64,000 bases of DNA from Candidatus Cloacimonadales bacterium (lineage in GTDB: Bacteria > Cloacimonadota > Cloacimonadia > Cloacimonadales > JAFGVF01), in contig CAXXOU010000004.1 of NCBI GenBank assembly GCA_963677495.2, positions 896,001 to 960,000 of the forward strand. Direction: 5' to 3'. Under the pieces are notes generated by a model that saw only the letters and a list, made by a program, of their open reading frames with translations, made no database searches and had not been told where the DNA came from. The number at the start of each line of letters is the position of its first letter. The stretch's first letter is position 1. Of the stretch, positions 5,090-59,631 are shown piece after piece. The position numbers were made by a program, and so were the translations under genes.

Positions 5090-5165
5090 AACCACGGATG
5101 AACCACGGGTAAACCACGCCCAAACCACGGGAACCGCGGTTAACCCGTGGTTTACCCGTTGTCAA
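5090..5165. repeat. 11-bp-phased inverted array, CCACG type (copy A)
   Basis: accacg at 5091, 5102, 5113, 5124, then ccgcgg/ccgtgg/ccgttg at 5134, 5145, 5156. Confidence 0.9.
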
Positions 5166-5267
5166 CTATTAAACTTTACTCCGACTTTCATTGGTTCCAA
5201 CAATATTTATAGACAGTAATTCTTATCTCTTTATCTTGTGAGTATATAAAGATTAATTGGAGGAAAC

Positions 5268-6362
5268 ATGCAATATTTACCTGTTGATATGATGTATAGC
5301 TTCATGATTGAAGTATTCGAAAAACTTGGAGTTCCATCTACCGAAGCTAAGATGTGCGCAGATGTTCTGATAGAATCAGATTTACGTGGAATAGAATCTC
5401 ATGGCATCGGTCGTTTAAAGATGTATTATGATAGGATAAAAGCCGGTATTCAGTTTGTTGATACGAAGATTGATGTAATTAGCGACAGAGCTGCAACAGC
5501 TGTCTGGGATGGTAATCATGGTATGGGACATGTTATTGCAACAAAAGCTATGCAGGAAGCAATAGATAAAGCTAAAAAATATGGAATTGGTTGTGTAACA
5601 GTGAGAAACTCAACTCACTATGGTATTTGCGGATATTATGCTTCAATGGCAATTGAAAATGATATGATTGGTTTCACATTTACAAATGCCAGACCATCAA
5701 TTGCTCCAACGAATGGTGTTGAACCAATGCTAGGTACAAACCCTATCTGTTTTGGTTGTCCTGCTGATGGAGACTATCCGTTTATCTATGATGCTGCAAC
5801 ATCTATTAGTCAAAGAGGTAAAATTGAAGTACTCGCTAGAGAAGAGAAACCAACACCTGAAGGGTGGGCAATTAACCTGCAAGGTGAAACTCAGACTGAT
5901 ACAGCAAAACTACTAGTGGATTTAGTAAAGAAACAAGCATCTATGCTTCCAATTGGTGGTACTGATGAAGTTACTGGTAGTCATAAAGGGTATGGTCTTG
6001 GAATGATGGTTGAGATTCTGAGTGCTGCACTACAGAATGGAAGCTACTTGCAAGGTCTGCATGGTTGGTCTGAAGATGGAAAGACAAGAGTCCCTTATAA
6101 ATTAGGGCATTTCTTCTTAGCTCTAAATATTGATTTTTTCACTGATATAAAAGACTTCAAAGCTATTGTTGGTGATATAATGCAACAGATGATCAACTCG
6201 GACAAGATTCCAGGTAGAGATAGAATCTATGTAGCTGGAGAAAAAGAGTACATAAATGCTATCAGAGTAAAAAGAGATGGCATCCCTATCGTGCCCAATC
6301 TGCGCAAAGATATCGAAGTTATGCAGAAGGAACTGGGAATAGATACTATAAAGTTTGATTAA
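5268..6362 (+). CDS. Ldh_2 family (type 2 malate/L-lactate) dehydrogenase
   Basis: DLRGIESHG, VRNSTHYG, GTNPI, HKGYGL motifs. Confidence 0.88.
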   Translation: MQYLPVDMMYSFMIEVFEKLGVPSTEAKMCADVLIESDLRGIESHGIGRLKMYYDRIKAGIQFVDTKIDVISDRAATAVWDGNHGMGHVIATKAMQEAIDKAKKYGIGCVTVRNSTHYGICGYYASMAIENDMIGFTFTNARPSIAPTNGVEPMLGTNPICFGCPADGDYPFIYDAATSISQRGKIEVLAREEKPTPEGWAINLQGETQTDTAKLLVDLVKKQASMLPIGGTDEVTGSHKGYGLGMMVEILSAALQNGSYLQGLHGWSEDGKTRVPYKLGHFFLALNIDFFTDIKDFKAIVGDIMQQMINSDKIPGRDRIYVAGEKEYINAIRVKRDGIPIVPNLRKDIEVMQKELGIDTIKFD

Positions 6363-6374
6363 TAATTATCATTT

Positions 6375-6401
6375 AAAGAGCGAAGTCTAACTTCGCTCTT
6401 T
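6375..6401 (+). terminator. Intrinsic terminator
   Basis: aaagagcgaag-tctaa-cttcgctcttt. Confidence 0.75.
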
Positions 6402-6417
6402 ATCGTTTAGAGGAACT

Positions 6418-6792
6418 ATGGATATTATATACAAGCAAGAATCGTACAATATTCAAGGTGGAATTTTTGAAGTATATAAAGAAATGGGTGCTGGATTTTT
6501 AGAAAGCGTTTATCAAGAGTGTTTAGAAAGAGAGTTTTTTCGAAGAAAAATTCCATTTGAAGCTCATCCATTACTGCAAATCTCATATAAGGGTGAAATG
6601 ATAAATCAGAATTTCATACCTGATTTTGTGTGCTACGATAAGATCATTGTCGAGATAAAAGCTGTATGTAGTTTAAATGAAGTTCATAAAGCTCAGTTAA
6701 TTAACTATCTTAAGTGTACAGGATTCAAACTTGGGATGTTGGTAAATTTCGGGGAGTATCCTAAAGCTGTCATCAAAAGAATTGTTATTTAA
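6418..6792 (+). CDS. GxxExxY protein (PD-(D/E)XK nuclease-like)
   Basis: GAGFLESVYQECL, PDFVC..KIIVEIKA, AQLINYLK, G.LVNFG. Confidence 0.92.
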   Translation: MDIIYKQESYNIQGGIFEVYKEMGAGFLESVYQECLEREFFRRKIPFEAHPLLQISYKGEMINQNFIPDFVCYDKIIVEIKAVCSLNEVHKAQLINYLKCTGFKLGMLVNFGEYPKAVIKRIVI

Positions 6793-6803
6793 AATCAATA
6801 GAT

Positions 6804-6914
6804 CACAAAAAACACGAAAGACACGAAAAAAAGAAATGGAACTTGTTGAATTATGTTAAGTGTATGGCACATCTACATCATTAAAATGTTTTCGTGCTTT
6901 TCGTGTTTTTTGTG
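6804..6914. repeat. Inverted pair of 9-bp-period CACGAAA repeats downstream of GxxExxY
   Basis: cacaaaaaacacgaaagacacgaaaa (6804-6829) vs ttttcgtgcttttcgtgttttttgtg (6889-6914), 24/26 complementary. Confidence 0.85.
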
Positions 6915-6940
6915 GTTAATATTTCTGATTAGAAATTAAA

Positions 6941-6968
6941 AAAGTCTGCCGTTTTAACAGCAGACTTT
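6941..6968. terminator. Intrinsic terminator for ferritin
   Basis: aaagtctgc...gcagacttt. Confidence 0.7.
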
Positions 6969-6985
6969 CATTATGTAAGTATCAA

Positions 6986-7495
6986 TTACGCACCTGCTGG
7001 TGGAGTAAATGACCTTGTTGCCAGTTCTTTATCCATCATGTAAAGTGTATGTGGATTAGCTGAAACCATCTTGATAGTTGTGAGAAGTTTATCTACGTTA
7101 GCTTCCTCTTCTACTTGCTCATCGATGTACCATTGTAAGAAACTCTTTGCAGCATGATCTTTTTCATCAATCGCTACGTTCATAAGATTGTTTATGCAAT
7201 CAGTAATAAATCTTTCATGCTTTAAAGTCATCTCAAACACTTGAGTAACATTTTCGAAATCAGTCTCTGGTTTATCTATTGCCTGTAAAACAACAGTTCC
7301 ACCGCGTTCAACAACATAATCAAAAAGCTTCATTGCATGAAAGCTTTCCTCTTCATATTGCACATGCATCCAATTGGCAAAACCATCAAGGTTTTGACTT
7401 TTGAACCATGCCGACATTGAAAGGTACAGATAAGCTGAGTAGAATTCTCTATTTATCTGATCATTTATCTCTTTTTCTAACTTTACTGTTATCAT
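6986..7495 (-). CDS. ftnA: Non-heme ferritin
   Basis: IN.EFYSAYLYLSMS, EE..HAMK, FLQWYIDEQVEEE; start at MITVK. Confidence 0.93.
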   Translation of the reverse strand: MITVKLEKEINDQINREFYSAYLYLSMSAWFKSQNLDGFANWMHVQYEEESFHAMKLFDYVVERGGTVVLQAIDKPETDFENVTQVFEMTLKHERFITDCINNLMNVAIDEKDHAAKSFLQWYIDEQVEEEANVDKLLTTIKMVSANPHTLYMMDKELATRSFTPPAGA

Positions 7496-7496
7496 T

Positions 7497-8678: not shown

Positions 8679-8696
8679 AATTCCTCCATTTATATA

Positions 8697-9497: not shown

Positions 9498-9584
9498 CAA
9501 TTCTCCTGTTTTTTAGTTAAGATAAACAAACATTGATACTATGCCAATAGTAATATAGCATTTTTACATATATTTAAGTATTAA

Positions 9585-11416: not shown

Positions 11417-11427
11417 TAAAAGCCCTT

Positions 11428-12702: not shown

Positions 12703-12830
12703 TTTCCACCCGTTCATTTAAGTAAGTAACGAATATCTCATGAATGTTGGAAGTCAAGAATAAATCAGACTAATCTTGCTAGCTCCCCTTACATTTGATA
12801 ATAATATTATTGTATGGCACACCTCAACTG

Positions 12831-12994
12831 CTATTCTCCTTCATCTCCCGGCAGTAATAGATGCTTTTAGTTTGGTTGTAACTTACTAATAAATTGGTCA
12901 CTTCTTGGTAATTAGGCCAAGGATTGACCAAGTGTTTGCCAAGGGTTGACCAAGTGTTTCGCAGGAATTACTGCCGGGAGATGAAGGAGAATAG
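12831..12994. repeat. 11-bp-phased inverted array, CCAAG type, with perfect 28-bp terminal inverted repeats (copy B)
   Basis: TIR 12831-12858 / 12967-12994; ttgg-like at 12872, 12883, 12894, 12905; ccaag at 12917, 12928, 12939, 12950. Confidence 0.92.
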
Positions 12995-13035
12995 TAGAGG
13001 AGTTGTTGCATTACAAATAGTAGTATTGTAAGATT

Positions 13036-14987
13036 ATCAAATTAGCTCTGAAGGAGAGAATTTAAAATATATCTGAATGAGCAAATGCTTTGAAGCTCTG
13101 AAAGAGCGACTGTTTAATAGCCCCATGCCTTGGCATGGGGTCACTTATCCTATCACGATTCTTAGTCCTGTAGGGGCGTAAGACAATAACTTAATGTCTG
13201 TGATTTGGTGTTTAAGATTCCTACGCCCCTTCAGGGCTGAAATGTTTTCTGGGATTGTAACCACACGCCGAAGCGTGTGGCTAATGAACCTACGCTACTT
13301 CGTAGCTAAAACATTTGCTTTAATACCTACATAATGATACATTGTAACAATCAATTGATTCCTGCAAACAAACTTTTGTGCTAATCAAATTAGCTCTGAA
13401 GGAGAAAATTAAATTATATCTGAATGAGCAAACGCTTTGAAGCTCTGAAAGAGCGACCGTTTAATAGCCCCATGCCTTAGCATGGGGTCACTTATCCTAT
13501 CACGATTCTTAGCCCTGTAGGGGCGTAAGACAATAACTTAATGTCTGTGATTTGGTGTTTAAGATTCCTACGCCCCTTCAGGGCTGAAATGTTTTATGGG
13601 ATTGTAACCACATGCCGAAGCGTGTGGCTAATGAACCTACGCTACTTCGTAGCTAAATAAGATTTGGTTTAATACCAACATAATGTTACATGTAACAATC
13701 AATGGATTCCTGTAAACAAACCTGTTTTCTAAACAAATTAGCTCTGAAAAAGCGAACGTAAGATATATCTGAAAGAGCAAACACTTTAAAGCTCTGAAAG
13801 AGCGATTGTTTAATAGCCCCATGCCTTGGCATGGGGTTAAGTTTAAAAACAACATGTAGCCCTATATGGGCGAAAGATACACCAAACGATCTTATGTCGC
13901 GTTTAGATATTCCTACGCCCCTTCAGGGCTGAAATGTTTTCTGGGATTGTAACCACACGCCGAAGCGTGTGGCTAATGAACCTACGCTACTTCGTAGCTA
14001 AAACATTTGCTTTATTACCTACATATTGATACATTGTAACAATTAATTGATTCTGGTAAACAAACCTGTGTGCTAATCAAATTAGCTCTGAAAGAGCGAC
14101 CGTTTAATAGCCCCATGCCTTGGCATGGGGTCACTGTCTTACCACGATTTGTAGCCCTGGAAGGGCGTAACTTTAAGGTTGCAAAATACTTAAAATTTGT
14201 TATCATATTAAAAAGTCTGTAGGAGGATTAAATATGTCAACATTCACACAACTTATCTATCACATAGTTTTCTCAACAAAAAACAGAATGCGTTCATTGG
14301 AACTACAACATAAAGAAAGATTTCTTTCCTATATTTGTGGTGTAATTAAAAACGATAAATCCCATGTCTATCAAATCAATATGGTAGAAGATCATATCCA
14401 TATTTTGTGCTCTATTCACTGTCAAACCAATGTCTCTGAGTTTGTCAGACATATTAAGAATGCGACCAATACTTTCAACAAAAGAGAGAAGTTGTTTCCG
14501 ATGTTTGAGGGTTGGCAAAAAGGGTATGGAGCATTTACTGTGAACTGGAAAGAGAAACACCGTTTAGTTGAATATATCAAGAATCAGGAAGACCACCACA
14601 AGCGATATGACTTTATAACTGAGTATAAGCGAATGTTAAAGGATTTTGGTGTATGTTATGAGGAGAAGTATCTTTAATCCTACGCCCCTATAGGGCTAAA
14701 ATGCATTCTGGGATTGTAACCACACGCCGAAGCGTGTGGCTATTGAACATGCGCTACTTCGTAGCTAAAGTTTAGCTCTGAAAGAGCGATTGTTTATTAG
14801 CCCCATGCCTTGGCATGGGGTTAAGTTTCAAAACAGCATGTAGCCCTATATGGGCGAAAGATACACCAAAACAACCTTGTAGCTCGTTTGAATATTATTC
14901 CTGCGCCCCTTCAGGGCTGAATCTTTTTTTGGGATCGTTACCACACGCCAAAGCGTGTGGCTATTGAACCTACGCTACTACGTAGCT
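13036..14987. mobile_element. REP/REPIN-like multi-hairpin array (5 units) containing a Y1 transposase gene (RAYT-like locus)
   Basis: Units start ~13036, 13384, 13732, 14076 and ~14773 (first periods ~345-350 bp); each has gctctgaaagagc, ccccatgccttggcatgggg, gccct..gggc, cgccccttcagggc, ccacacgccgaagcgtgtgg and gctacttcgtagc hairpins. Confidence 0.88.
14234..14677 (+). CDS. tnpA: IS200/IS605-family (Y1, HUH) transposase, REP-associated type; no tnpB
   Basis: YHIVFSTKNR, DHIH (HUH), WQKGYGAFTV, YIKNQ..HH; AGGAGG RBS. Confidence 0.93.
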   Translation: MSTFTQLIYHIVFSTKNRMRSLELQHKERFLSYICGVIKNDKSHVYQINMVEDHIHILCSIHCQTNVSEFVRHIKNATNTFNKREKLFPMFEGWQKGYGAFTVNWKEKHRLVEYIKNQEDHHKRYDFITEYKRMLKDFGVCYEEKYL

Positions 14988-15093
14988 TAAAAAAAGCAAA
15001 TTCCAACACTGTTATATTATCTCTCGATTAAGAAAGGTAAGTTGTAGGCTTTATTGAAATAAGCTACAACCTTTCTCCTTGTTTCATCTTTCT

Positions 15094-15158
15094 TTTTACA
15101 TTCCTCATCTTGCATCTTGCATTTTACATTCCTCATCTTGCATCTTGCATTTTACATT
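15094..15158. repeat. 28-bp tandem repeat built from heptamers
   Basis: (ttttacattcctcatcttgcatcttgca)x2 + ttttacatt. Confidence 0.85.
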
Positions 15159-15165
15159 TGCCTTC

Positions 15166-15303
15166 CCCACATACGCCCATTCAATTAAAATACGACAAAT
15201 TTATAATAGTTATCCACAACTTGTGACTAACTTGATGCTTTGATCAAGAGAGTATCAAGAGAGTATCAGGTGAGTATCAAGAATTGAATGGGGATAAGAT
15301 GGG
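15166..15303. repeat. 11-bp-phased inverted array, TCAAG type (copy C)
   Basis: IR cccattcaatt / aattgaatggg; cttg at 15220, 15231; atcaag/atcagg at 15243, 15254, 15265, 15276. Confidence 0.8.
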
Positions 15304-15396
15304 ATGATGATATGAAAAATAATGCTTTATGTAAGAAAAAGCTTGCAATATAATTGTATTCTATATTAAAATTGCCTTAGATCTTAAGGAGGAACT

Positions 15397-17713: not shown

Positions 17714-17717
17714 TTAA

Positions 17718-17762
17718 TAAGCTATAAGCTATAAGCTATAAGCTATAGGCTATAAGCTATAA
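17718..17762. repeat. Heptamer tandem repeat (TAAGCTA)x6
   Basis: taagcta x4, taggcta, taagcta directly after the kce stop. Confidence 0.9.
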
Positions 17763-17773
17763 ATTGAACAAAT

Positions 17774-37011: not shown

Positions 37012-37371
37012 AATAATCAACCCCTTTGTGAGTTATATATCTATAGTATAATTCGTATGTCATGGAATGCAATTATTAAGGGTGGTTAAAAAATTTCTAA
37101 TAGTTTAAACTTTGCTCCGGCAACAGATATTCAACTTTTTTATTTCAAATTAGTTATAATAAAGTATACCAGCAGAAGTTTTATCGAAAACAACTTATCC
37201 TTTAACATTGAAACGTTTGCAGTTAACATTAATCGCTTGTCTACAATGGTTATATGTGAGTATCAATATATGAATCCTGCGGGTCACATAATATCTTAAG
37301 AATAAACTCTTCATCAAGATACTAGTACAGAGCTCTAGCACATCTAATTTCAATCCAAAACTCCATCCCTT

Positions 37372-37401
37372 TAACGGGTTTCTAACGGGAAGCTAATGGG
37401 G
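37372..37401. repeat. Partial 11-bp-phased array, TAACGGG type (copy D)
   Basis: taacggg 37372, taacggg 37383, taatggg 37394; inverted arm not clearly present. Confidence 0.5.
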
Positions 37402-37817
37402 AGCAGATTAGTAGTTAGCAGCGAAAAACCTATAGCTGGTAGTGATAATTATATATGATTAATTTTGGTATCCAAGACAGTGTGTTAAAGACTTTAATTT
37501 AGTTTCATTGCTCTATCATAATAATCGTGACTCAGGTGTCTGATCCTAATGAGTCTCTTGGGCCTTCCTGGGGAAAATTGATAAGAAAGTCTCCATAATT
37601 GTTGCTGCAAAGGTATTGTGAAAATTCTTTATTATGATAGGGCATAGAGGGATTTTAATTGAGTTGAAGAGTGTTTTAGTCTTCATTTAATAAGAGCGAA
37701 GTATTGTTTCAAAGTATATAAACATGAAACGAATGTAGCACTTTTAGTGCTCTTTGTGGCTTCACTTTTTTTTTAAGAATGGTATTTATACTATGAGCAC
37801 GAGTAAATCTAAAAAAT

Positions 37818-50016: not shown

Positions 50017-50038
50017 TAGATAGTGATATAATGAATAT

Positions 50039-50099
50039 AGCGGAAGTCCAAGGACTTCCGCTGTATTTGTTGCAACGTAACTCAGCAGTCTCGACTGAG
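50039..50099. repeat. Hairpins between convergent genes (terminator or REP-like)
   Basis: agcggaagtcc-aa-ggacttccgct, then ctcag..ctgag. Confidence 0.55.
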
Positions 50100-50146
50100 A
50101 ATAACGCCCCGGAGATACGTTTTACGTAACTCAAAAAGCTGCCCTC

Positions 50147-50602
50147 TTATTCCACAATCCAATGCGTCAGATCTTCATATCGTGGAATCATAGGTAACAA
50201 TCCATTATCAACTGCTTCACTGACAGTTCTTATCGGCAAGTCCATATCAACTACTACCTCTGGTGTGACTGTCGTCAAATCTACGGGATAACCGTCTTTC
50301 TTCAATTTAAACATCATCTTCATCAAAAGAGATGCATAACTTGGAGGTCTACATTTGTGCGTATGTGATAGGTTATACCTATCTGTGTAATCTTTCAAAT
50401 CATCGATGTATTCGGGATTTAGATGTGTTTTGTAAACTGCTATGTTTTTAGAAACATCTCCCATATAATGATTATGGTCTGTGATTTCAGGCATTACAAA
50501 TTCTCTAACCCACATGATGTTTCCATCTTCATCACAGCAATAAACAAGTTTTCCATGTTTACCTGATAGTGATTTGAAAGGAAATGCTAAATAACTTTTC
50601 AT
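50147..50602 (-). CDS. Uncharacterised 151-aa protein
   Basis: AGGAG RBS; N-terminal LSGK.GKLVY...G....VR and C-terminal VDL.TVT...DLPIRTV.EAV..GLLP; no function recognised. Confidence 0.75.
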   Translation of the reverse strand: MKSYLAFPFKSLSGKHGKLVYCCDEDGNIMWVREFVMPEITDHNHYMGDVSKNIAVYKTHLNPEYIDDLKDYTDRYNLSHTHKCRPPSYASLLMKMMFKLKKDGYPVDLTTVTPEVVVDMDLPIRTVSEAVDNGLLPMIPRYEDLTHWIVE

Positions 50603-50726
50603 TTTGATCTCCTTTTTTTCCTTTTCACTATCCCTTGCTCACAAAACCTTTAATTTAGTCACAAACATCCAAACTTATTTTAAAAACTTACAAATATCTG
50701 TTAATTTCTGCTTCTCTGTATCTTAG

Positions 50727-50884
50727 TTTTCTCTCTTCTCTCAGCAGTAATAAGTGATTTTATACTAGTTCTAGCTTGGTCTTATGTTGGAATAATCTTA
50801 GTAATTAGGCCAAGGATAGGCCAAGTGTTTGCCAGGAATTTACCAAGTGTTTGCTAAGAATTAATGCCGAGAGAAGAGGGGAAA
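50727..50884. repeat. 11-bp-phased inverted array, CCAAG type (copy B')
   Basis: Imperfect TIR 50727-50751 / 50860-50884; cttgg-like at 50764, 50775, 50786, 50797; ccaag-like at 50810, 50821, 50832, 50843, 50854; core nearly identical to copy B. Confidence 0.9.
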
Positions 50885-51041
50885 GTGAAACAGATTTTCC
50901 TGTATTGATAGTGTTTAAAAGGAACAGAAGGGTATAAACATACTGTCATATTAAGTTAACTAAGACTATTACAGAATTATGTAATCTCAATAGTAATCTT
51001 TTACCGATGATACTAGTACCGTTTCGATTGAATTACAAAAA

Positions 51042-51067
51042 AACGGGAAGCATTTCTGCTTCCCGTT
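51042..51067 (-). terminator. Intrinsic terminator
   Basis: aacgggaagca-tttc-tgcttcccgtt with A-run on the left. Confidence 0.8.
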
Positions 51068-51085
51068 ACTATTCTATGTAATTTA

Positions 51086-51919
51086 TTAGAATAAATTGTA
51101 TGTTACAGCAACACCGAGTGTTTCTTTGTAATAGATATCTTCATCGATTTCTTTGTCATAATTGAGTTCGAAGTAGAAACCTACACCGACATACTTCATG
51201 ACTTGAATAGTAAGATCATTTTTCCACTGTACATCAAGAGCTTTCCATTCATCCATATCTTCATATAAACCATCAGCTTCTGAGTTGATTAAAGCTTGAT
51301 AGAGACGTAATTCAGATTTGAACTTTGCCATTTTTCCCATGAATACTTCAGAATATTTAGTTACAGATTCGATACCAGAGTCGATAATTGTTGTTTGTCC
51401 TCTTGTCGCAAACTGTCTTGCAGCCCAACCTAATCTGCTGTGAAACTCTCTGTTTTCAAGTTTTACAAAGTATTTTCCAATACCAACAGCTTCAGACCAA
51501 AGGTTTGTATCGAAGAGTTCATTTTCCATGTTTGTGAAATATGTTTCATCTCTAACTGAAGCAAAGAGTGTATAGTGTTTGCTTACATTAAAATCAAAAA
51601 TTGACTCTAAAACGATCTGGTCTTCTGCTTCAGTTGGTTTAAGCCATTCTTCAGTAGTCTTGTTATATGTATGTTTCTGTCCCCATTTCAACTCAGCAGT
51701 ATTAGTCCAATATACTAATTCTGAAAGTGGTCTTTCAGCTGACATATTGACTCTTGCTACCCAATCGATTGCACTTTCTTCATCTCCATTCCAATTGTCA
51801 CTATAATAGCTTTGGTTAAGTAATAGATTTAGGTCACCTTTCACAACCCAAGGTGTTTGTGCGAGCAACATAGATAAACCCATAATTAAAATAAATAAAA
51901 CGGATAGTTTCTTAAACAT
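51086..51919 (-). CDS. DUF3078-like outer-membrane beta-barrel protein
   Basis: Signal peptide, NQ.YYSDNW.G, C-terminal YNLF. Confidence 0.7.
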   Translation of the reverse strand: MFKKLSVLFILIMGLSMLLAQTPWVVKGDLNLLLNQSYYSDNWNGDEESAIDWVARVNMSAERPLSELVYWTNTAELKWGQKHTYNKTTEEWLKPTEAEDQIVLESIFDFNVSKHYTLFASVRDETYFTNMENELFDTNLWSEAVGIGKYFVKLENREFHSRLGWAARQFATRGQTTIIDSGIESVTKYSEVFMGKMAKFKSELRLYQALINSEADGLYEDMDEWKALDVQWKNDLTIQVMKYVGVGFYFELNYDKEIDEDIYYKETLGVAVTYNLF

Positions 51920-51965
51920 ATCTCCTCCTTTTTGTTCAGGTAAATATTATCCAAAAAAAAGAAGA

Positions 51966-51993
51966 GGGCAAGAAATATTTCATTCTTGCCCTT
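51966..51993 (-). terminator. Intrinsic terminator after lysS
   Basis: agggcaagaa...ttcttgccct. Confidence 0.7.
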
Positions 51994-52016
51994 AATATTT
52001 GTTAAGTTATGATTAA

Positions 52017-53513
52017 CTATTCCGGTTTCATTGTAGGGAAGAGGATAACCTCTTTTATTGATTCATTTTCAGTTAAAAGCATAACTAGACGGTCGATACC
52101 GATACCAAGTCCACCTGTTGGAGGCATGCCATATTCCATCGCTTCCAAGAAGTCTTCATCTATAACGTTTGCTTCTAAATCTCCAAGCTCTCTTAGCTTA
52201 GATTGTGACTCAAGACGTTCTCTTTGATCAATCGGGTCATTCAATTCTGTGAATGCATTGGCAAATTCGTAACCGGCAATAAAGAGTTCAAAACGCTCTG
52301 TGAACATTGGGTCACCCGGTTTTGCTTTTGCCAGAGGAGAGATCTCTTTCGGATGATCAATCACAAAGGTAGGTTGAATAAGCTTATGCTCTGCAAAATG
52401 TTCAAAGATTTCAGCGATAAGTTTTCCTGAACCTGCACCTTTAGGAATCTCGATGTTCTTCTCTTTGCAAAAAGCAGATAATTCTTCAAAACTATATCCA
52501 CTTACATCAACACCTGCATGCTCTTCAATGAGCTCAAGCATTGTAGCTCTACGGAAAGGAGTTTTAAGAGAAACCTCGTGTCCTGCATAAGTTACATCTG
52601 TGTTGCCATTAACTTTTGCAGCTCCTTGACTGAAGATATCTTCAGTAATCTTCATCATGCCTTCAAGGTTTGAATATGCTTCATAGAGCTCAATAAGAGT
52701 AAACTCAGGATTATGAGTTCTATCCATACCTTCGTTGCGGAAATTCTTTCCAATCTCATAGACTTTCTCATAACCACCGATGATGAGTCTTTTTAAGTAA
52801 AGCTCAGTAGCGATTCTGAGATAAAGGTCAGTTCCAAGTGTATTATGATGAGTGATGAATGGTCTGGCATTAGCGCCACCATACAAAGGCTGAAGAGTAG
52901 GTGTTTCAACTTCAATATATCCGATTCCATCAAGGTAGGTTCTTACAAATGATACGATTCTGGAACGTTTAACGAAAGTTTCTTTGTTCTCAGGATTAAG
53001 AAGTAGGTCTAAATAACGCTTTCTATATCTTAGCTCAATATCATTGAACTCGTCATAACGCACAGCTTTTCCATCCACTATTTTCTCTTTAACAGTTGGA
53101 ATAGGGCGGATGTTCTTACTTAGCATAGTAACTTTACTAACAAGAATTGAGTACTGACCACGTTGAGTCATGAAAGCGGTTCCGTTTATCTGTACGAAAT
53201 CACTAAGGTCACAGAGTTTGAAAACTTCATAGTTCTCATCACCAACTCCGTCTTTCTTAACAAACAGCTGAATCTTACCAGTCATGTCTGTTAATTGAGC
53301 AAATCCAACTTTGCCCTGACGACGCATAGCGGTGAGACGACCGGTTACGATAACAGCCTCTTCGTTCTTTAAGTACTCCTCTTCATTATCAAGTAAATCC
53401 TTGATGTAATGAGTCCTTTCACAACTTGTAGGATATGGGTTGATTCCCAAATCTCTAATCTTTTGCAATTTCTGCTTTTTGAGACCAATAACCTGTTTTA
53501 CATTCTGTTCCAT
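52017..53513 (-). CDS. lysS: Lysine-tRNA ligase (class II)
   Basis: YGGANARPF.THHN, FRNEG.DRTHNPEFT, YGMPPTGG.GIGIDRL. Confidence 0.98.
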   Translation of the reverse strand: MEQNVKQVIGLKKQKLQKIRDLGINPYPTSCERTHYIKDLLDNEEEYLKNEEAVIVTGRLTAMRRQGKVGFAQLTDMTGKIQLFVKKDGVGDENYEVFKLCDLSDFVQINGTAFMTQRGQYSILVSKVTMLSKNIRPIPTVKEKIVDGKAVRYDEFNDIELRYRKRYLDLLLNPENKETFVKRSRIVSFVRTYLDGIGYIEVETPTLQPLYGGANARPFITHHNTLGTDLYLRIATELYLKRLIIGGYEKVYEIGKNFRNEGMDRTHNPEFTLIELYEAYSNLEGMMKITEDIFSQGAAKVNGNTDVTYAGHEVSLKTPFRRATMLELIEEHAGVDVSGYSFEELSAFCKEKNIEIPKGAGSGKLIAEIFEHFAEHKLIQPTFVIDHPKEISPLAKAKPGDPMFTERFELFIAGYEFANAFTELNDPIDQRERLESQSKLRELGDLEANVIDEDFLEAMEYGMPPTGGLGIGIDRLVMLLTENESIKEVILFPTMKPE

Positions 53514-53676
53514 CTTAGCTCCACATTGTTAGTTAAATTAGTTTGCGGTTATCTGTCGTGTATCTGTGGGGGATAGTATATGACAGTGATAACCGCAATT
53601 AAAATCTTTATTACATGACAATTTGTGAATCACATCTTCGATGTCAATAAAGATTTCTATTGAGTACACAATATAC

Positions 53677-53877
53677 GTAGGTGCATCTAGTCACTCAACT
53701 CTTAAAGGAGTTATTCAGAGTGAAGTGTGCGAACGAAGAAGGACTTCTTTAATATCCGAAACTGAAAAGCGAAAGTTCTTGATGCGAGAACGAAGTTGAC
53801 TTCGAGTTATCGGAATTAGCGATTCACACTTCGTTGAGAATCACTTCTTCCTTGGTCATCTTGCAATTGCATCTACG
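53677..53877 (+). ncRNA. Candidate ~200-nt rod-shaped structured RNA (6S-like) or folded palindromic element
   Basis: Nested stems gtaggtgca/tgcatctac, ggagttattc/gaatcacttc, agtgaagtgtg/cacacttcgtt, tccga/tcgga, gttctt/gagaac; several G.U pairs on + strand. Confidence 0.45.
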
Positions 53878-53907
53878 CAGTTGATGCATTCCATATTTAA
53901 ACCATCT

Positions 53908-54023
53908 ACCAAATCGTAGTCATCCCACTATTTTCCCACTGTGCATGCACTGTGCACCCAGTGAAACAGTGGGTTGGCAGTGCCTTCACAGTGGGGCCAC
54001 AGTGCGTACACCGTGCGTTGGTA
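53908..54023. repeat. 11-bp-phased inverted array, CACTG type (copy E)
   Basis: cact at 53926, 53937, 53948 (cagt 53959); cagtg at 53967, 53978, 53989, 54000 (ccgtg 54011); taccaa/ttggta ends. Confidence 0.85.
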
Positions 54024-54324
54024 AAAAGTGCAGTGAAAGGCAGTAAAAAGGGCAAAAAATGTAGCTAAGTCATTGCAAAAGGCACTGAGTATGTTATTCT
54101 AAAGCTGTCGCAATAGCGACCGAAGGGAGATGGGCGAATAGCGAAAATGGCTATAATCAATTTCGTGACAAGACGCACCAACGCAGATGGTGCACTCCAT
54201 AGTTGTAAGTCATTGTAAAATGCACTGCGTATGTCATCCATTAATCATGAAGGCAAAAATTTGCAATAATCCTTGACGATGTAAAACTTATTTGGATTAT
54301 TATCTCTATTGAAAGGGGTGTGTA

Positions 54325-55011
54325 ATGAAGAAAACGCTATTTATAATAATTCTATCAACACTATTCGTGTCTCTATTATTCTCTGTTAAACAAGAAATCA
54401 ATATTTCTAATCAAGTTGTACTTGATGAAATGTTAGATGAATTGGCAACAAAAGCATATGATAACTTCAAAGAAATTCCACCACATAAACTGAAAGATGG
54501 GGATGAACCAATCAGATGTGCTATTATGCCAATCAACAATGACATTAATGATAGGCTATATAACATTTTGAGTAGTAAACTTACTAAGACCGAGTTTGAT
54601 TTCTATGATAGAAAAGAAATTGATACTAACATTGAAGAACTTGCCTTGCAGAATAATGACTTATATCTTGATGATGGTAGTCTTAATTTTGGTAAGTTTA
54701 AACACTGGAAAGGTGCAATATTTGCTGATATGGACTACAAAAGTGAGACCTTCTTACTTAAAAAGACTCATTATTTAATGCTTAATGTGAAGATGGGAGA
54801 CATTGAAACTAATGGGCATCTGTGGCATGAAACCTTTACTACTGTTAGAAAAGATAAATTCCCAATAACATATCTTGTTATAGGATTAGTAGCTCTACTC
54901 TTCATAAGTATTCTGGTCAATATCGGAACTAAAGGTGTTATGACCAACGCGGTCTTAACGATCACCTTTATCCTGATGATACTTTATGCTGTTTGGTATT
55001 TTGTGGTGTAA
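54325..55011 (+). CDS. Exported CsgG/TolB-N-like domain protein with two C-terminal TM helices
   Basis: Signal peptide; AI.P, F...DR.EID..IEE..LQ pattern; hydrophobic C-terminus. Confidence 0.55.
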   Translation: MKKTLFIIILSTLFVSLLFSVKQEINISNQVVLDEMLDELATKAYDNFKEIPPHKLKDGDEPIRCAIMPINNDINDRLYNILSSKLTKTEFDFYDRKEIDTNIEELALQNNDLYLDDGSLNFGKFKHWKGAIFADMDYKSETFLLKKTHYLMLNVKMGDIETNGHLWHETFTTVRKDKFPITYLVIGLVALLFISILVNIGTKGVMTNAVLTITFILMILYAVWYFVV

Positions 55012-55101
55012 ATTCCCCTCTCGTAGAGGGGTACCGTTGAAACCGGTGGGTGTTTCTATTCCCCTCTTGTAGAGGGGTGCCGACTTGTCGGTGGGGTGTT
55101 T
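55012..55101. repeat. Two direct copies of a ~44-bp two-hairpin REP-like repeat
   Basis: attcccctct(c/t)gtagaggggt(a/g)ccg...ggtggg(g)tgttt at 55012 and 55058. Confidence 0.9.
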
Positions 55102-55118
55102 TCCCTAAAGAGTCGATA

Positions 55119-55520
55119 ATGAATAATAAATATAAAAAATACAAGAAGCTACCGTATAATCCTAAGTTGAAAGAGAAAGCAAAAGCTCTTCGGAAAGCAG
55201 GCAATCTTTCAGAAGCACTTCTTTGGCTTCCGCTAAAAAAGAAGAATTTGCTAGGACTAGATTTTCACAGGCAGAAGATTATCGGGAACTATATTGTTGA
55301 TTTTTATTGTCCTGAATTACAATTAGTTGTTGAAATAGACGGTGTTAGTCACGATTTTAAGATTGAATATGATGAACGTAGAGAAAAGTATCTAGAGTCT
55401 TTAGATTTGACTATAATACATTATAGTGATATAGATGTTAAGAGGAATATGAGTGGAGTTATTGACGATTTGATTGATAGATGCGAGAAGTTGATGTGGA
55501 GAGGTGCGCGGTTTGAGTAA
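55119..55520 (+). CDS. DUF559 (Vsr-like) endonuclease domain protein
   Basis: LPYNPKLKEKAKALRK, E.LLW, FHRQKIIGNYIVDFYC, VEIDG.SH, D.RR..YLE. Confidence 0.92.
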   Translation: MNNKYKKYKKLPYNPKLKEKAKALRKAGNLSEALLWLPLKKKNLLGLDFHRQKIIGNYIVDFYCPELQLVVEIDGVSHDFKIEYDERREKYLESLDLTIIHYSDIDVKRNMSGVIDDLIDRCEKLMWRGARFE

Positions 55521-55562
55521 AACACCCCGTCACTTCGTGCCACCCTTCTGTGAGAGGGGAAT
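55520..55562. repeat. Inverted copy of the DUF559-associated repeat
   Basis: aaacaccccgtcacttcgtgccacccttctgtgagaggggaat. Confidence 0.85.
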
Positions 55563-55700
55563 AAATCGGTGATCTTGCATTATCTGATATACACTAAAGA
55601 TCTTCTGAATGAGATATAATAGTATCAATAGCAGGACTCATCTTTGCAACGAAGACAAGCTGGTAGCAAGGCATGCATAACAGCTCGGTAGAGCTGTGAA

Positions 55701-55745
55701 AATTCCCCTCTTGTAGAGGGGTGCCGTTGGAAACGGTGGGGTGTT
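55701..55745. repeat. Direct copy of the DUF559-associated repeat
   Basis: aattcccctcttgtagaggggtgccgttggaaacggtggggtgtt. Confidence 0.9.
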
Positions 55746-55774
55746 CTCCCCAAAAGAGTACAAAAGGAGGAACA

Positions 55775-57610
55775 ATGCCATTTTGTAGCAATTGTGGCAA
55801 CAAAATAGAGGAACATGACAAGTTCTGTCCAAATTGTGGTACTCCTAATCGGAGTAGTAAAGACACTGCGAGCACTAAACCTGCTCAAGGTACAATCCTA
55901 GAACATGGTAGCTACGGACAATCCAATAGTGAACTACCAAAGGGTTTTGAGATTGAAGGTCGATATAGAATAGAACAAAAGCTTGGTAAAGGTGGATTTG
56001 GTACTGTTTATAAGGCATGGGACAGCAATGTAGATGAATACAAAGCCCTAAAGGTAATTGATAATATATTTTACGATGATAAAAGGGTTATTACCTCTCT
56101 CAAGAAAGAAACTAAGTTACTTCTTAAACTTAATTCAAAACATGTTGTGAGAATATTTGATGTACATCTTCAAGGTGATGTTAAGTTCATTGATATGGAG
56201 TATATCGATGGGGGCGACTTAGTAGATTTGATGTTATCTTATGAGGATGAGAAGGTTCCTGAAGAGCGAGTTATTGAGATAGCTAAACAGATATGCCAAG
56301 GTATGATCGATATCCATGCTCATAACATTATCCACAAAGACCTGAAACCACAGAATGTTATACTTACTAAATCCGGTCAGATAAAGATAATGGACTTCGG
56401 TATCTCAGAGACTTTCAGAAGTAGTATGAGTCGTATGAAAGAGACATCAAAGAGCGGTACACCGGCATATATGAGTCCTGAACAACTACTTGGAAAAGAT
56501 GTAGGCAAAGAATCAGATATATGGAGCTTTGGGGTTATGTTGTATGAATTGCTATCAGGTAAACAGCTTTATACAGGTAGCTCCTTGAATGAAGTTTATT
56601 TTCAGATTCAGAATAGGGAGTATACTAAGATTGATCCCGTTAGCTCAAAACTGAATTTTGTTATTGAAAAATGCTTAGTAAAAAAACATATTAACCGATA
56701 TAGATTATTCGAAGATGTACTGAATCAATTAACTAAGAAAAAAATAAATAAACAATTAATTATTACAGAAGATGTTGAGTATAACGAATTAGCGAAAGAG
56801 CACAAAACAAATATTACTAATGAGATTATTGAAACTAAAATTAACGAATTGAGTAATCATGACCATATTTCTAAAACTGGTATCGAAATGATTAGAGTTA
56901 AAAGCGGGGAATTTATTATGGGTAGTAACGAAATAGAAGCGAAACCTAAAGAAATACCTAAGCACAAAGTAACAATAGATAGCTTCTATATTGGGAAATA
57001 TCCAGTATCACAACAACTATGGAAAGGAATCATGGGTAACAATCCTTCAGAATATATAGGAGAAAGAAAACCTGTAGAAAATGTTAGTTGGTATGATGCT
57101 GTAGAATTTTGCAATAAACTTAGTGATAAAGAAGGATTGGAAAAATGCTATATTGGTTCTGTTGGTAATATCAGATGCAACTGGAACGCGAATGGATACA
57201 GATTGCCTACTGAAGCTGAATGGGAATTTTCAGCTAGAGGGGGAGGATCAAGTGAATTATATAAATATTCCGGTAGTAACAATATTGATGATGTATGTGT
57301 ATATTTATCAAAAAATGGAATTGGATCGAAAGAAATTGGTACAAAAATGCCAAACGAATTAGGAATATATGATATGAGTGGTAATGTTTGGGAATGGTGC
57401 TGGGATCTGTATGGAGAATATATTTCTAAAACTGTTTCAAATCCAACTGGAAGCACTGAAGGGACACATCGTGTATATAGAGGTGGTTGTTGGTATAGCT
57501 ATAGCTCTCATTGTCGATGTGCATTTCGTAGCAAAAACCATCCCATGGTTAAAAATGCGTTCATTGGTTTTCGAATTGCTCGTTCAATAATGAATTCTCA
57601 TGAGGACTAA
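55775..57610 (+). CDS. Zinc-ribbon + Ser/Thr protein kinase + FGE-sulfatase (C-type lectin fold) domain protein
   Basis: CSNCG..CPNCG; GKGGFG, HKDLKPQN, DFG, GTPAYMSPE; YRLPTEAEWE, N.LG.YDMSGNVWEWC, RGG, GFR; ATG 55775 after AAAGGAGG. Confidence 0.93.
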   Translation: MPFCSNCGNKIEEHDKFCPNCGTPNRSSKDTASTKPAQGTILEHGSYGQSNSELPKGFEIEGRYRIEQKLGKGGFGTVYKAWDSNVDEYKALKVIDNIFYDDKRVITSLKKETKLLLKLNSKHVVRIFDVHLQGDVKFIDMEYIDGGDLVDLMLSYEDEKVPEERVIEIAKQICQGMIDIHAHNIIHKDLKPQNVILTKSGQIKIMDFGISETFRSSMSRMKETSKSGTPAYMSPEQLLGKDVGKESDIWSFGVMLYELLSGKQLYTGSSLNEVYFQIQNREYTKIDPVSSKLNFVIEKCLVKKHINRYRLFEDVLNQLTKKKINKQLIITEDVEYNELAKEHKTNITNEIIETKINELSNHDHISKTGIEMIRVKSGEFIMGSNEIEAKPKEIPKHKVTIDSFYIGKYPVSQQLWKGIMGNNPSEYIGERKPVENVSWYDAVEFCNKLSDKEGLEKCYIGSVGNIRCNWNANGYRLPTEAEWEFSARGGGSSELYKYSGSNNIDDVCVYLSKNGIGSKEIGTKMPNELGIYDMSGNVWEWCWDLYGEYISKTVSNPTGSTEGTHRVYRGGCWYSYSSHCRCAFRSKNHPMVKNAFIGFRIARSIMNSHED

Positions 57611-59332
57611 ATGCCATATTGCGTACATTGTTCAAAAGAGATACAATCTGATTGGAAGGTTTGCCCCTTTTGTGGGAAACCTAATGTTTTGAGTCAGAAT
57701 ATGGAAAGTAATGATTCTGTAAAATCTGATACTATCTTAGAAACCGGTGGTTACGGACAATCAATAAGCGAACTACCTAAAGGTTATGAGATAGAAGGAC
57801 GATATAGAATTGATGCAAAACTTGGTAAAGGTGGTTTCGGTACTGTCTATAGAGCTTGGGATAACAATGTAGATGAATACAAAGCTCTCAAAGTGATTGA
57901 TAATATCTTTTATGATGATAAGAGGGTGATTGCATCCCTGAAGAAGGAAACCAAGTTATTGCTGAAGCTCAACTCTAAGTATGTTGTCCGTATCTTTGAT
58001 GTGCATCTTCAAGGAGATGTTAAGTTCATCGATATGGAGTATATAGATGGAGGTGACTTAGTAGATTTGATGCTTTCTTATGATGATGAGAAAGTCCCTG
58101 AAGATAAGGTAATCGAGATAGCAATACAAATATGCCAAGGGATGATTGATATTCATGCTCACAATATTATTCACAAAGACCTTAAACCACAGAATGTTAT
58201 GCTTACTAAATCCGGCCAAGTAAAGATAATGGACTTCGGTATCTCAGAGACTTTCAGAAGTAGTATGAGTCGTATGAAAGAGACATCAAAGAGCGGTACA
58301 CCTGCATATATGAGTCCGGAACAACTACTCGGAAAAGATGTAGGTAAAGAATCGGATATCTGGAGCTTTGGGGTTATGTTGTATGAGTTGCTTTCAGGGA
58401 AACAGCTCTATACCGGTAGCTCAGTGAATGAGGTTTATTTTCAGATACAGAATAGGGAGTATGAAGTCATTGATAATGTCCCTGATTTCATGAACTCTGT
58501 ACTTGAAAAATGTGTTGTACAAAGTTTTAAGGATAGGTTTTCTGATTTTGAGACTTTATCAAAATCTTTAAGTAAACAGAAGTCATTGAAAAAATCAAGT
58601 TTTGCGAATTATACTTCGAAAACAGGGATTGAGATGATTGCTGTTGAGGGTGGAAGCTTTACTCTTGGAAAAAAGGGAGCGTTCAATACGGGAAGCGAGA
58701 CTGAAGCAAGTGTTGATGATTGTTTCATTTCTACCTACCAAATAACTATCAGTAAATGGAATGAAATTATAGAAGATAACTTAAGAAAAGGGAAATACAT
58801 AAATCATCCTGTAACTAAAGTTTCATTCAAAGAAGTTGTACTTTTTTTGAACAAACTAAGTGAGTTGGAAGGGTGTCAACCTTGTTACACTAACATCAAC
58901 ACAAATATACAATGTGATTTTGGTGCTGATGGTTATAGATTACCAACTGAATCAGAATGGGAATTTGCTGCGAAAGGTGGTAACCTGAGACGTGGATACA
59001 AGTATAGTGGAAGTGATAAAGCATCAGAAGTTGCTTGGTGTTGGCCTCATTCATTCAAATCAATTACACATGTTGGAAGATTAAAATCTAATGAGTTAGG
59101 AATCTATGATATGAGTGGTAATGTTTGGGAATGGTGCTGGGATTGGTTTGGTGATTACCCACAACAGAAACTACAAAATTATAAAGGTCCTAAATTCGGT
59201 TCATTAAAAACTGTAAGGGGAGGAGACTGTATAAACACTGCATATTCTAGTCGTGTTATTAATCGTTCTTACATGAGACCTGATGCTAAAACAAAACTGC
59301 TTGGTTTCAGAATTGCTAGGAGTAGGGTTTGA
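57611..59332 (+). CDS. Second zinc-ribbon + Ser/Thr kinase + FGE-sulfatase domain protein
   Basis: Same motifs; kinase domain nearly identical to the upstream gene. Confidence 0.93.
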   Translation: MPYCVHCSKEIQSDWKVCPFCGKPNVLSQNMESNDSVKSDTILETGGYGQSISELPKGYEIEGRYRIDAKLGKGGFGTVYRAWDNNVDEYKALKVIDNIFYDDKRVIASLKKETKLLLKLNSKYVVRIFDVHLQGDVKFIDMEYIDGGDLVDLMLSYDDEKVPEDKVIEIAIQICQGMIDIHAHNIIHKDLKPQNVMLTKSGQVKIMDFGISETFRSSMSRMKETSKSGTPAYMSPEQLLGKDVGKESDIWSFGVMLYELLSGKQLYTGSSVNEVYFQIQNREYEVIDNVPDFMNSVLEKCVVQSFKDRFSDFETLSKSLSKQKSLKKSSFANYTSKTGIEMIAVEGGSFTLGKKGAFNTGSETEASVDDCFISTYQITISKWNEIIEDNLRKGKYINHPVTKVSFKEVVLFLNKLSELEGCQPCYTNINTNIQCDFGADGYRLPTESEWEFAAKGGNLRRGYKYSGSDKASEVAWCWPHSFKSITHVGRLKSNELGIYDMSGNVWEWCWDWFGDYPQQKLQNYKGPKFGSLKTVRGGDCINTAYSSRVINRSYMRPDAKTKLLGFRIARSRV

Positions 59333-59368
59333 GATATGTGAATTGTTAAAGCATAGATTACGGGGATT

Positions 59369-59527
59369 GTAGGGCACGCAGCTTGCTTTTGCCCACAGCT
59401 CGATGAGCTGTATTCATGATGACTGAAATTTATGAGATATACTAAAGAAGTTTAGGAAATAATATAAATTAGCTTCTTTGGCAGAGCTTAGCTATCGCTA
59501 AGCAGACAAGCTGGCAGCATGTCCTAC
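59369..59527. repeat. GTAG...CTAC-bounded REP-doublet-like element
   Basis: gtagggcacgcagcttg vs caagctggcagcatgtcctac; inner hairpins cagctc..gagctg and gcttagc..gctaagc; related remnant at ~55654-55697. Confidence 0.6.
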
Positions 59528-59546
59528 TAGTAAAAGTCTGGTTGTG

Positions 59547-59631
59547 AACCACGAAATAACCACGGGCAAACCACGCCCATACTACGCGAGCCGTGGTTAA
59601 CCCCTGGTTTACACGTGGTCAACCCGTGGTA
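59547..59631. repeat. 11-bp-phased inverted array, CCACG type (copy A')
   Basis: accacg at 59548, 59559, 59570, 59581 (actacg); ccgtgg-like at 59591, 59602, 59613, 59624; colinear with copy A. Confidence 0.92.

What the first reader, a model, noticed from the sequence alone, without database searches (positions are those of the whole stretch)
5090..59631. Dispersed family of 11-bp-phased inverted arrays: same geometry, different core motifs
Seen: six intergenic sites (5090, 12831, 15166, 37372 partial, 50727, 53908, 59547 make five complete types of copy plus the partial one) follow one design. Two to four copies of a ~5-bp core lie exactly 11 bp apart, then a centre, then 3-5 reverse-complement copies again 11 bp apart, often within terminal IRs. 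The core changes together on both arms: CCACG/CGTGG, CTTGG/CCAAG, CTTGA/TCAAG, CACTG/CAGTG. Linkers vary, so these are not ordinary tandem repeats, terminators, CRISPR or classical REPs. Known: 11 bp is about one helical turn (A-form RNA ~11, B-DNA ~10.5), so all cores lie on one face. Inference: an undescribed class of cis element, e.g. a platform for cooperative protein polymerisation, or a cruciform/hairpin substrate of a mobile system whose specificity is set by the core sequence. This is my best candidate for a new system here.
Basis: partly seen in the sequence, partly recalled or inferred. Interest (0 to 1): 0.88.

Follow-up and report, generated by a model that had tools for sequence, protein, structure and literature searches.

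The report
Phased DNA arrays with cognate genes
These scattered 11-base-spaced repeats are gene-less copies of arrays that sit in front of a family of small, unstudied, positively charged proteins, each gene carrying its own repeat word, which points to an undescribed protein-and-address system in Cloacimonadota bacteria.

Summary
Real. All seven sites exist. The genome holds about 190 such arrays, at period 11 only, in a dozen or more word families. Earlier notes of this scan saw the arrays (three times) and, separately, an orphan 150-aa protein family, without linking them. The link: window gene 50147-50602 lies 172 bp from array 50727. The family splits into two clades: 56 of 88 clade II genes carry an array 60-650 bp upstream, against 5 of 80 clade I genes. 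Each array has its own word, and word similarity follows protein identity. Dispersed arrays match the arrays in front of their own genome's genes (18 of 25 sampled), and none were found in 200-kb samples of four genomes without clade II. The arms show no pairing covariation; copy lengths change in steps of 11 (116 of 117). Clade II proteins are basic, with no clear fold match. Clade I and II genes often face away from each other around defence or primase cargo. Best reading (0.6): the clade II protein coats its word on double-stranded DNA, and gene-less copies spread like REPINs. Binding, spreading enzyme and purpose are untested.

The parts
5090..5166 (.). Gene-less CCACG-family array (4+3 words) between dxs and an Ldh_2 gene
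   Evidence: not present at the orthologous site of G048
12814..13011 (.). Gene-less CTTGG-family array with outer inverted arms
   Evidence: not present at the orthologous site of G048
15160..15305 (.). Gene-less CTTGA-family array; a TTATCCACA 9-mer (DnaA-box-like, label recalled) at 15210-15218 overlaps its weak arm; 88% like the array in front of family gene C4:777579
37367..37420 (.). Worn one-armed copy of the AACGG/CCGTT family (22 loci); its closest gene-linked array is in sister genome G182 (L056)
50147..50602 (-). Candidate cognate gene: 151-aa clade II member (P0001) of an orphan family with 22 full-length paralogs in this genome
50613..50687 (-). Conserved leader of the gene with a twice-repeated 7-bp word 20 bp apart; shared with the G048 ortholog (L055), paralog L020 and L020's clade I partner
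50727..50884 (.). Gene-linked ('master') CTTGG array, innermost edge 172 bp upstream of the P0001 start; moves with leader and gene as a unit
53900..54100 (.). Gene-less CACTG-family array with its conserved 3' extension; the gene-linked copy of this word is 228-238 bp upstream of family gene L064 in G048
54066..54233 (+). Two copies (54066-54093, 54206-54233) of a 28-bp motif containing the CACTG word, bracketing a hairpin cassette; typical tail of this family
59547..59634 (.). Gene-less CCACG-family array (4+4 words)

Best explanation
A two-part, gene-plus-address system. Each clade II paralog of an orphan 150-aa protein has a master array of its own 5-7-bp word a few hundred bases upstream (association shown). 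The basic protein most likely binds that word on double-stranded DNA, one unit per 11 bp, building two cooperative tracks that meet at the centre (inferred). At the master copy this probably controls the module, which often includes a divergent clade I paralog with the same leader and a third orphan gene, and marks the edge of a cargo slot (inferred). Gene-less copies are non-autonomous offspring of the master array, copied around the chromosome by a process that leaves no target duplication and adds or removes whole 11-bp units. They appear to persist mainly where the cognate gene is present, as REPINs do with RAYT (pattern shown, cause inferred). The protein itself shows no recognisable catalytic motif, so the copying enzyme is probably another one (inferred). 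The variable beta-hairpin segment (about residues 22-37) is the likeliest reading surface (inferred).
For: Upstream arrays (score >=30, period 11, 60-650 bp upstream): 61 of 168 family genes, against 0-8 at periods 9, 10, 12, 13 and 2 of 171 downstream. By protein-only clades: 56 of 88 clade II against 5 of 80 others; 48 of 73 against 4 of 73 without this genome. Loci outside the tree set: 11 of 14, 0-1 at other periods, 0 of 12 downstream; 15 of 25 clade II against 1 of 7 clade I among genes. Clade I genes stand at the other end of the same slots, an internal control. Dispersed arrays in 200-kb samples: 14, 7, 5, 5, 8 in five genomes with clade II; 0, 0, 0, 0 in two genomes without the family and two with other clades only. 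Of the 25 sampled arrays, 18 align best to an array in front of a gene of their own genome, 4 to one of the sister genome, 3 to none; in this genome 178 of 189 align to an own-gene upstream region. Word similarity is 0.87 above 75% protein identity, 0.64 at 60-75%, 0.38 below 50%. The CCACG pattern has 96 matches here, 1 in G048 and 0 in G182, neither of which showed a close counterpart of the CCACG-linked gene L010. Net charge +5.9 in clade II against +0.7 in clade I. No arm covariation; length steps of 11. Array, leader and gene sit together in different neighbourhoods in G000 and G048. Distant two-domain relatives in G042 have 10-bp arrays instead (4 loci).
Against: No binding was tested; co-inheritance alone also makes word follow protein. 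32 of 88 clade II genes had no array at the threshold, including the primase-slot subclade. Within this genome alone enrichment is weak: 9 of 22 genes against 175 of 649 background genes. The two largest families here have loose links: the CACTG copy is 801 bp from L017 and inverted relative to the G048 ortholog, and the CCACG link rests on one gene at 486 bp. The AACGG family (22 loci) has no gene-linked copy in this genome, and CACTG has 17 matches in G182 with no cognate gene among 7 found (83% complete). In 2 filled slots the array is nearer the clade I gene (L305, L326). Genomes are kin and were chosen for copy number; clade II support is 0.74; the score threshold was set after seeing the null.
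Confidence: 0.6

Rival explanations
1. The arrays are operators or passengers read by something else (the third orphan gene, or a host nucleoid protein) and are only inherited with the clade II gene because they lie in its promoter region; RAYT-type or IS enzymes spread them.
For: A third orphan gene (about 190-220 aa; 38 members in 18 genomes) recurs in these modules. The genome has 7 Y1-transposase-like genes and many hairpin repeats. CACTG arrays are followed by hairpin cassettes.
Against: This genome has 6 copies of the third gene against 15 clade II genes and a dozen or more words, and in most slots that gene sits beside the clade I gene. One host protein would not need a new word per paralog. 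The nearest arrays to the Y1 genes are 542 bp to 46 kb away.
Confidence: 0.17
2. The module is an integrase-less satellite-like or gene-transfer-like element. Clade I and II proteins form a mixed coat on DNA at about 11 bp per step, and the array is the nucleation or packaging signal; dispersed arrays make host DNA packageable.
For: 22 of 23 divergent pairs are one clade I plus one clade II gene; partners share a pair-specific leader (8 of 23 strict against 5 of 506 non-partners, 5 more on a relaxed view). Slots carry restriction, Abi and candidate defence genes, and 3 of 16 slots examined carry a primase-helicase. The N-terminal 80 residues resemble small phage proteins by language-model features (0.87-0.88, lead only).
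Against: Direct repeats at the outer ends in only 2 of 23 pairs. No relative found in viral contigs, phage or plasmid records. Primase-bearing slots are the ones without a clear array.
Confidence: 0.12
3. The element works as a single-strand hairpin (RNA or DNA) with paired words once per A-form turn.
For: Dyad layout; outer arms of two families are slightly more complementary within a copy than between copies (82 and 111 of 5000 permutations reach the observed value).
Against: Inner arms: 21 compensated against 506 uncompensated departures over three families, own-arm pairing no better than permuted. One-armed families exist. Linkers swap position between copies.
Confidence: 0.06
4. The arrays are iteron-type replication origins for a primase-helicase of a small mobile element.
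For: Two inverted clusters of short words; D5-like and BT4734/PriCT-2/DUF3987 primases in three slots, a type tied to mobile elements in PMC5862659 (passages read).
Against: No AT-rich centre (gaps between arms mostly 3-15 bp); about 190 copies on a chromosome; scores 18-29 in front of the clade II genes of primase slots.
Confidence: 0.05

Closest known systems
REPIN-RAYT system (bioRxiv 10.1101/2021.07.10.451892, passages read)
   Same: A gene flanked by a member of its own repeat family; many dispersed non-autonomous copies; several gene/repeat pairs per genome; repeat numbers fall when the gene is missing.
   Different: The linked gene has no Y1/HUH match; the repeat is a phased word array without pairing covariation, not a hairpin doublet; the gene family is multi-copy and changes location.
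Plasmid centromere and operator arrays bound cooperatively by small proteins (R1 parC/ParR with 11-bp repeats, pSM19035 parS/omega, F-type sbm/TraM; recalled)
   Same: Short phased words upstream of the gene for a small basic protein; weak likeness of helices 52-104 to ribbon-helix-helix proteins (TraM 3omy Z 5.1, rmsd 2.0, 46 aligned; PutA, CopASO, omega Z 4.1-4.5).
   Different: Chromosomal, many paralogs with different words, about 190 gene-less copies, no partition NTPase among recurrent neighbours; the fold likeness is below a trustworthy Z and lacks the ribbon strand.
Defence hotspots of P4-like satellites (PMC9122126, passages read)
   Same: A few kb of fast-changing defence cargo between two conserved genes.
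   Different: Bounded by two paralogs of one orphan family facing outward, no integrase among recurrent neighbours, and a phased array inside or beside the slot.
DUF6266 (PF19781) and HMG-box proteins
   Same: N-terminal 80 residues near a DUF6266-containing cluster by features (0.87); HMG_box hits at E 0.006-0.02 in 2 of 146 members and one distant relative.
   Different: No member reaches a Pfam cut-off for either; leads only.

Membership tests
REPIN-RAYT / REP | Linked gene is a Y1 HUH (IS200-like) transposase | tested here: not met
   0 of 146 family members hit Y1_Tnp in Pfam; no conserved His pair in alignments A1/A2.
REPIN-RAYT / REP | Repeat is a palindrome kept as a hairpin | tested here: not met
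   Inner arms lack compensatory change in three families.
REPIN-RAYT / REP | Dispersed extragenic population with a member beside the cognate gene | tested here: met
REPIN-RAYT / REP | GTAG or CGTC end tag | not tested
   Tags named in the title of PMC3733652 (listing); none obvious in the consensus ends, not scanned for.
MITE / IS-derived element | Target-site duplication at fixed ends | tested here: not met
   4-mer flank scan in four families: best excess 2-4 copies of 13-60; ends are ragged.
MITE / IS-derived element | Terminal inverted repeats | tested here: inconclusive
   Imperfect outer arms in CTTGG and CGGGA families, not in CCACG or CACTG.
Plasmid centromere (parC/parS + binder + NTPase) | Phased array upstream of a small DNA-binding gene | tested here: met
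   Arrangement only; binding not tested.
Plasmid centromere (parC/parS + binder + NTPase) | Adjacent ParA/ParM/TubZ NTPase | tested here: not met
   No such gene among recurrent neighbours of 764 ORFs or in slot cargo.
Ribbon-helix-helix proteins | RHH fold | tested here: inconclusive
   Best Z 5.1, rmsd 2.0, 46 aligned, helices only.
HMG box | HMG fold or Pfam score | tested here: inconclusive
   Sub-threshold Pfam hits.
Phage satellite (P4-like, PICI) | Integrase and attachment-site direct repeats | tested here: not met
   Outer direct repeats in 2 of 23 pairs; slots abut housekeeping-type ORFs (judged from ORF starts, not scanned with Pfam).
Phage satellite (P4-like, PICI) | Primase-helicase | tested here: inconclusive
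   3 of 16 slots examined.
CRISPR / known RNA family | Rfam model match | tested here: not met
   0 at gathering score in the window; only chance-level hits at 50600-54400.
Any: sequence-specific binding by the clade II protein | Direct, phase-dependent binding | not testable with these tools
   Needs EMSA, footprinting or ChIP.

The most novel reading that the evidence does not exclude
A new class of integrase-less element in which two paralogous small proteins of an undescribed fold co-assemble on DNA at 11 bp per step from a programmable address array, coating or packaging the slot cargo (defence genes). Each paralog pair has its own orthogonal word, and gene-less arrays seed the same assembly, and insertion of incoming DNA, at about 190 chromosomal sites.
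Probability: 0.15. Interest if true: 0.95.

Novelty: categorically new. Interest (0 to 1): 0.82.

Why it matters
It turns an unexplained repeat class into a testable protein-DNA pair. There are dozens of natural protein/word combinations, so a recognition code for an uncharacterised fold can be read out directly. It would be a second kind of gene-plus-dispersed-repeat partnership beside REPIN-RAYT, apparently without a transposase, and it ties those repeats to defence-gene slots in a phylum common in anaerobic digesters (habitat recalled). Orthogonal, cooperative binders with 5-7-bp words could also be useful parts.

Tried and rejected
Fold searches gave no clear match: Foldseek PDB and BFVD had none at E <= 0.001; VIA-align best Z 3.6 for the whole model and 5.1 for residues 1-104. 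This shows neither a new fold nor a difference. Sequence searches of PDB, Pfam, PHROGs and NCBIfam with the alignments gave nothing significant; none for the third gene either. Homodimer prediction: no verdict. Sequencing runs: no RNA holder listed; four runs of one sample showed no joint that skips or flips an array. No longer fused forms found by word search (weak), although two-domain relatives turned up in G042. A five-word CCACG pattern found nothing in genome contigs (this genome may be left out). Rejected: a fixed strong-arm polarity towards the gene (21 distal, 17 proximal, 18 equal); even spacing (gap CV 0.99) and replication-strand bias; target duplications; attachment repeats at slot ends. 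Literature searches that found no description: (open-access library only; no supplements were read, and tables there could list the protein family).
Full report
Observation. The window is G000:C4:896001-960000 of a 3.41-Mb, four-contig genome. Relatives point to Cloacimonadota (Atlas clusters; named records). All seven listed sites carry words at exact 11-bp steps with a flip in the middle; 37372 is a worn, one-armed copy. A strict scan found 149 arrays genome-wide at period 11, at most 3 at any other period from 7 to 18, and none in a shuffle. A looser scan found 189 non-coding arrays. They sort into sequence families: CACTG 64, CCACG 34, CTTGG/CTTGA 29, CGGGA 16, CCTTG 4 and smaller ones. 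No Rfam family matches.

Anatomy of the repeats. Between outer anchors, 116 of 117 measurable copies (of 137 examined) have the modal length or differ by 11 bp; the detector favours in-phase arms, so this is partly built in. Linkers between words come from a small set and change place between copies. The two arms do not covary: 15 compensated against 297 uncompensated departures in CCACG, 4 against 56 in CGGGA, 2 against 153 in CTTGG, with own-arm pairing equal to permuted pairing (CACTG was not tested this way). Outer arms of two families show a small own-copy excess, driven by a few copies. There is no target duplication, no even spacing and no strand bias. At four orthologous sites in sister genome G048, three lack an array and the fourth has a different family's array and no gene. 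So the copies come and go, and what is kept is word and phase.

The linked gene. Window ORF 50147-50602 (151 aa, no Pfam) starts 172 bp from the 50727 array and is one of 22 paralogs in this genome. The family occurs in 122 of 201 genomes sampled from the phylum, often in many copies; 366 cluster representatives pass E 0.001. I scored 60-650 bp upstream of 176 distinct family genes (168 had enough sequence). At score 30 or more, 61 of 168 have a period-11 inverted array, against 8, 5, 4 and 0 at periods 9, 10, 12, 13, and 2 of 171 downstream. A protein-only tree splits the family. Clade II (92 genes, support 0.74) has arrays in 56 of 88; the rest in 5 of 80. The median distance from array centre to start codon is 277 bp. 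Twenty further loci came from a pattern scan with one subclade: 2 were too short, 4 were already in the tree, and 11 of the other 14 scored 30 or more at period 11, with 0-1 at other periods (some lie in genomes touched).

Each gene has its own word. Similarity of array units is 0.87 for protein pairs above 75% identity (5 pairs), 0.64 at 60-75% (12), 0.46 at 50-60% (32) and 0.38 below. Within one subclade the N-terminal ten residues are nearly fixed while residues 22-37 change along with the word (read by eye). The window module (array, leader, gene) recurs in G048 at another site with 82% protein identity and the same word.

Dispersed copies belong to those genes. In ten 20-kb samples per genome, period-11 arrays numbered 14 (G000), 7 (G048), 5 (G019), 5 (G012) and 8 (G003), all with clade II genes, and 0 in G020 and G032 (no family match) and G036 and G085 (other clades only). 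Of the 25 arrays sampled outside G000, 18 align best to an upstream array of their own genome, 4 (all G048) to one in G000, and 3 to none; one of those three lies 853 bp from a family gene that I fetched later. In G000, 178 of 189 align to an own-gene upstream region, 2 are such regions themselves, and 9 are not matched here, 6 of them matching gene-linked arrays of the sister genomes. Word patterns agree: CCACG 96 matches in G000, 1 in G048, 0 in G182; CACTG 334, 120, 17; CCAAG 109, 13, 1; none in G085 or G044. Against this: enrichment within G000 alone is weak (9 of 22 against 175 of 649), the CACTG and CCACG links in G000 are loose, one 22-locus family has no gene here, a third of clade II genes show no array, and the genomes are related and were picked for copy number.

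The protein. AlphaFold2 gives a confident model (pLDDT 94): a three-strand N-terminal hairpin region followed by helices. Clade II members are basic (+5.9 net, +6.6 in the first 60 residues); clade I members are near neutral (+0.7). Nearly invariant residues are K2, G14, R33, Y72 and L109, with no obvious catalytic set. Helices 52-104 lie weakly on ribbon-helix-helix proteins (best Z 5.1), and HMG-box and DUF6266 likenesses are below threshold. These are leads only.

The wider module. I checked 23 divergent pairs more than 1.8 kb apart, chosen from the coordinate lists: 22 are one clade I and one clade II gene. Partners share a pair-specific leader, a word repeated 20-22 bp apart followed by a TATA...GAGG motif: 8 of 23 by a strict test against 5 of 506 non-partner comparisons, and 5 more on a relaxed view. 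The array usually lies inside the slot next to the clade II gene; two exceptions are L305 and L326. L327 and L041 are empty slots with only the array between the genes, and L326 is L327 plus a 2.9-kb insert with a Mutator-type transposase fragment about 90 bp from the array. Of 55 cargo ORFs from 16 slots, 11 hit PADLOC models (restriction-modification, Abi, candidate systems, PrimPol), and three slots carry primase-helicases. A third orphan gene recurs, 38 times in 18 genomes. Some genomes have the two clades in the same orientation instead, with the array still upstream of clade II. All six copies of one insertion sequence in G000 (IS3-like by its ends; label recalled, not tested) sit just past the end of a CTTGG element.

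How it most likely works. Shown: phase-locked word arrays; one array per clade II gene; word follows protein; dispersed copies derive from gene-linked arrays and track gene presence. Inferred: the clade II protein binds its word on duplex DNA, one unit per 11 bp, in two tracks meeting at the centre; the master array regulates the module and borders the slot; offspring arrays are copied by another enzyme or by recombination and act as docking sites and landing pads for incoming DNA. I put this at 0.6. Rivals are another reader with mere linkage (0.17), a coat or packaging system (0.12), a hairpin (0.06) and an origin (0.05).

Comparison with known systems. It works like REPIN-RAYT in population logic (bioRxiv 10.1101/2021.07.10.451892, passages read) and like plasmid centromere or operator arrays in local layout (recalled), and the slots recall satellite hotspots (PMC9122126, passages read). 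It fails the defining tests of each: no Y1 transposase, no hairpin covariation, no NTPase, no attachment repeats. Nine searches of the open library found no description (listings only, apart from the three papers named). The scan had found the arrays before in this genome and thought them confined to one genus with an unknown reader; here they extend across at least four families of the order and have a candidate reader.

Verdict. Real, undescribed in what I could search, and now directly testable. Interest 0.82; categorically new as an arrangement, with the mechanism still inferred.

Noticed in passing
window 54066-54233; genome-wide: CACTG arrays are followed by 1-4 copies of a 28-bp motif separating several kinds of hairpin cassette: 127 motif hits, 112 within 1.5 kb of a CACTG array, spacings mostly 138-142 or 150-152 bp, again 11 apart. 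Looks like a growing cassette array.
   Followed up: partly
G000 C2:143089, 235670, 359474; C3:93959; C4:220987, 1237818: All six copies of one IS3-like element are inserted just past the end of a CTTGG-family element.
   Followed up: partly
L301:1578-2162, L323:1381-1950 and 36 more; G000 cluster of 6: Third orphan gene family (190-220 aa) tied to these modules, no Pfam or PDB match.
   Followed up: partly
L295, L296, L300, L285 (G042): Two-domain (340-aa) and one 162-aa distant relative have one-armed TATGAA arrays at period 10, not 11.
   Followed up: partly
L341:8246-9679, L342:5351-7846, L343:7068-9959: Slots with D5-like or BT4734/PriCT-2/DUF3987 primases between the outward-facing paralogs, with no integrase-sized ORF recognised at the edges.
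   Followed up: partly
window 15210-15218: TTATCCACA 9-mer beside the weak arm in 11 of 189 arrays (154 such 9-mers in the genome), often as half of a palindrome.
   Followed up: partly
window 53520-53610: Non-coding leader upstream of lysRS is far more conserved in G048 than other intergenic DNA and has an inverted repeat at its ends; possible RNA leader.
   Followed up: no
window 6418-6914: PDDEXK_3 gene followed by an inverted array with about 9-bp spacing (arms 6804-6829, 6889-6914); a parallel small-gene-plus-repeat module.
   Followed up: no
window 13038-14990: Cluster of 347-bp REP-type units around a Y1 transposase gene at 14234-14677.
   Followed up: no
window 55006-55752 and 59659-59714: DUF559 gene flanked by a palindromic repeat family with a further copy beside the 59547 array.
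   Followed up: no
window 15073-15156, 17717-17765: 7-bp tandem arrays; similar ones flank many family genes.
   Followed up: no
L183:1566-17634 (G048): A 16-kb island after the Ldh_2 gene ends in a 201-bp duplicate of that gene's 3' end and begins with a clade II gene.
   Followed up: no
window 56022-58104: Contigs of the same sample join the two tandem kinase-FGE paralogs differently, suggesting a third copy or paralog cross-mapping.
   Followed up: no
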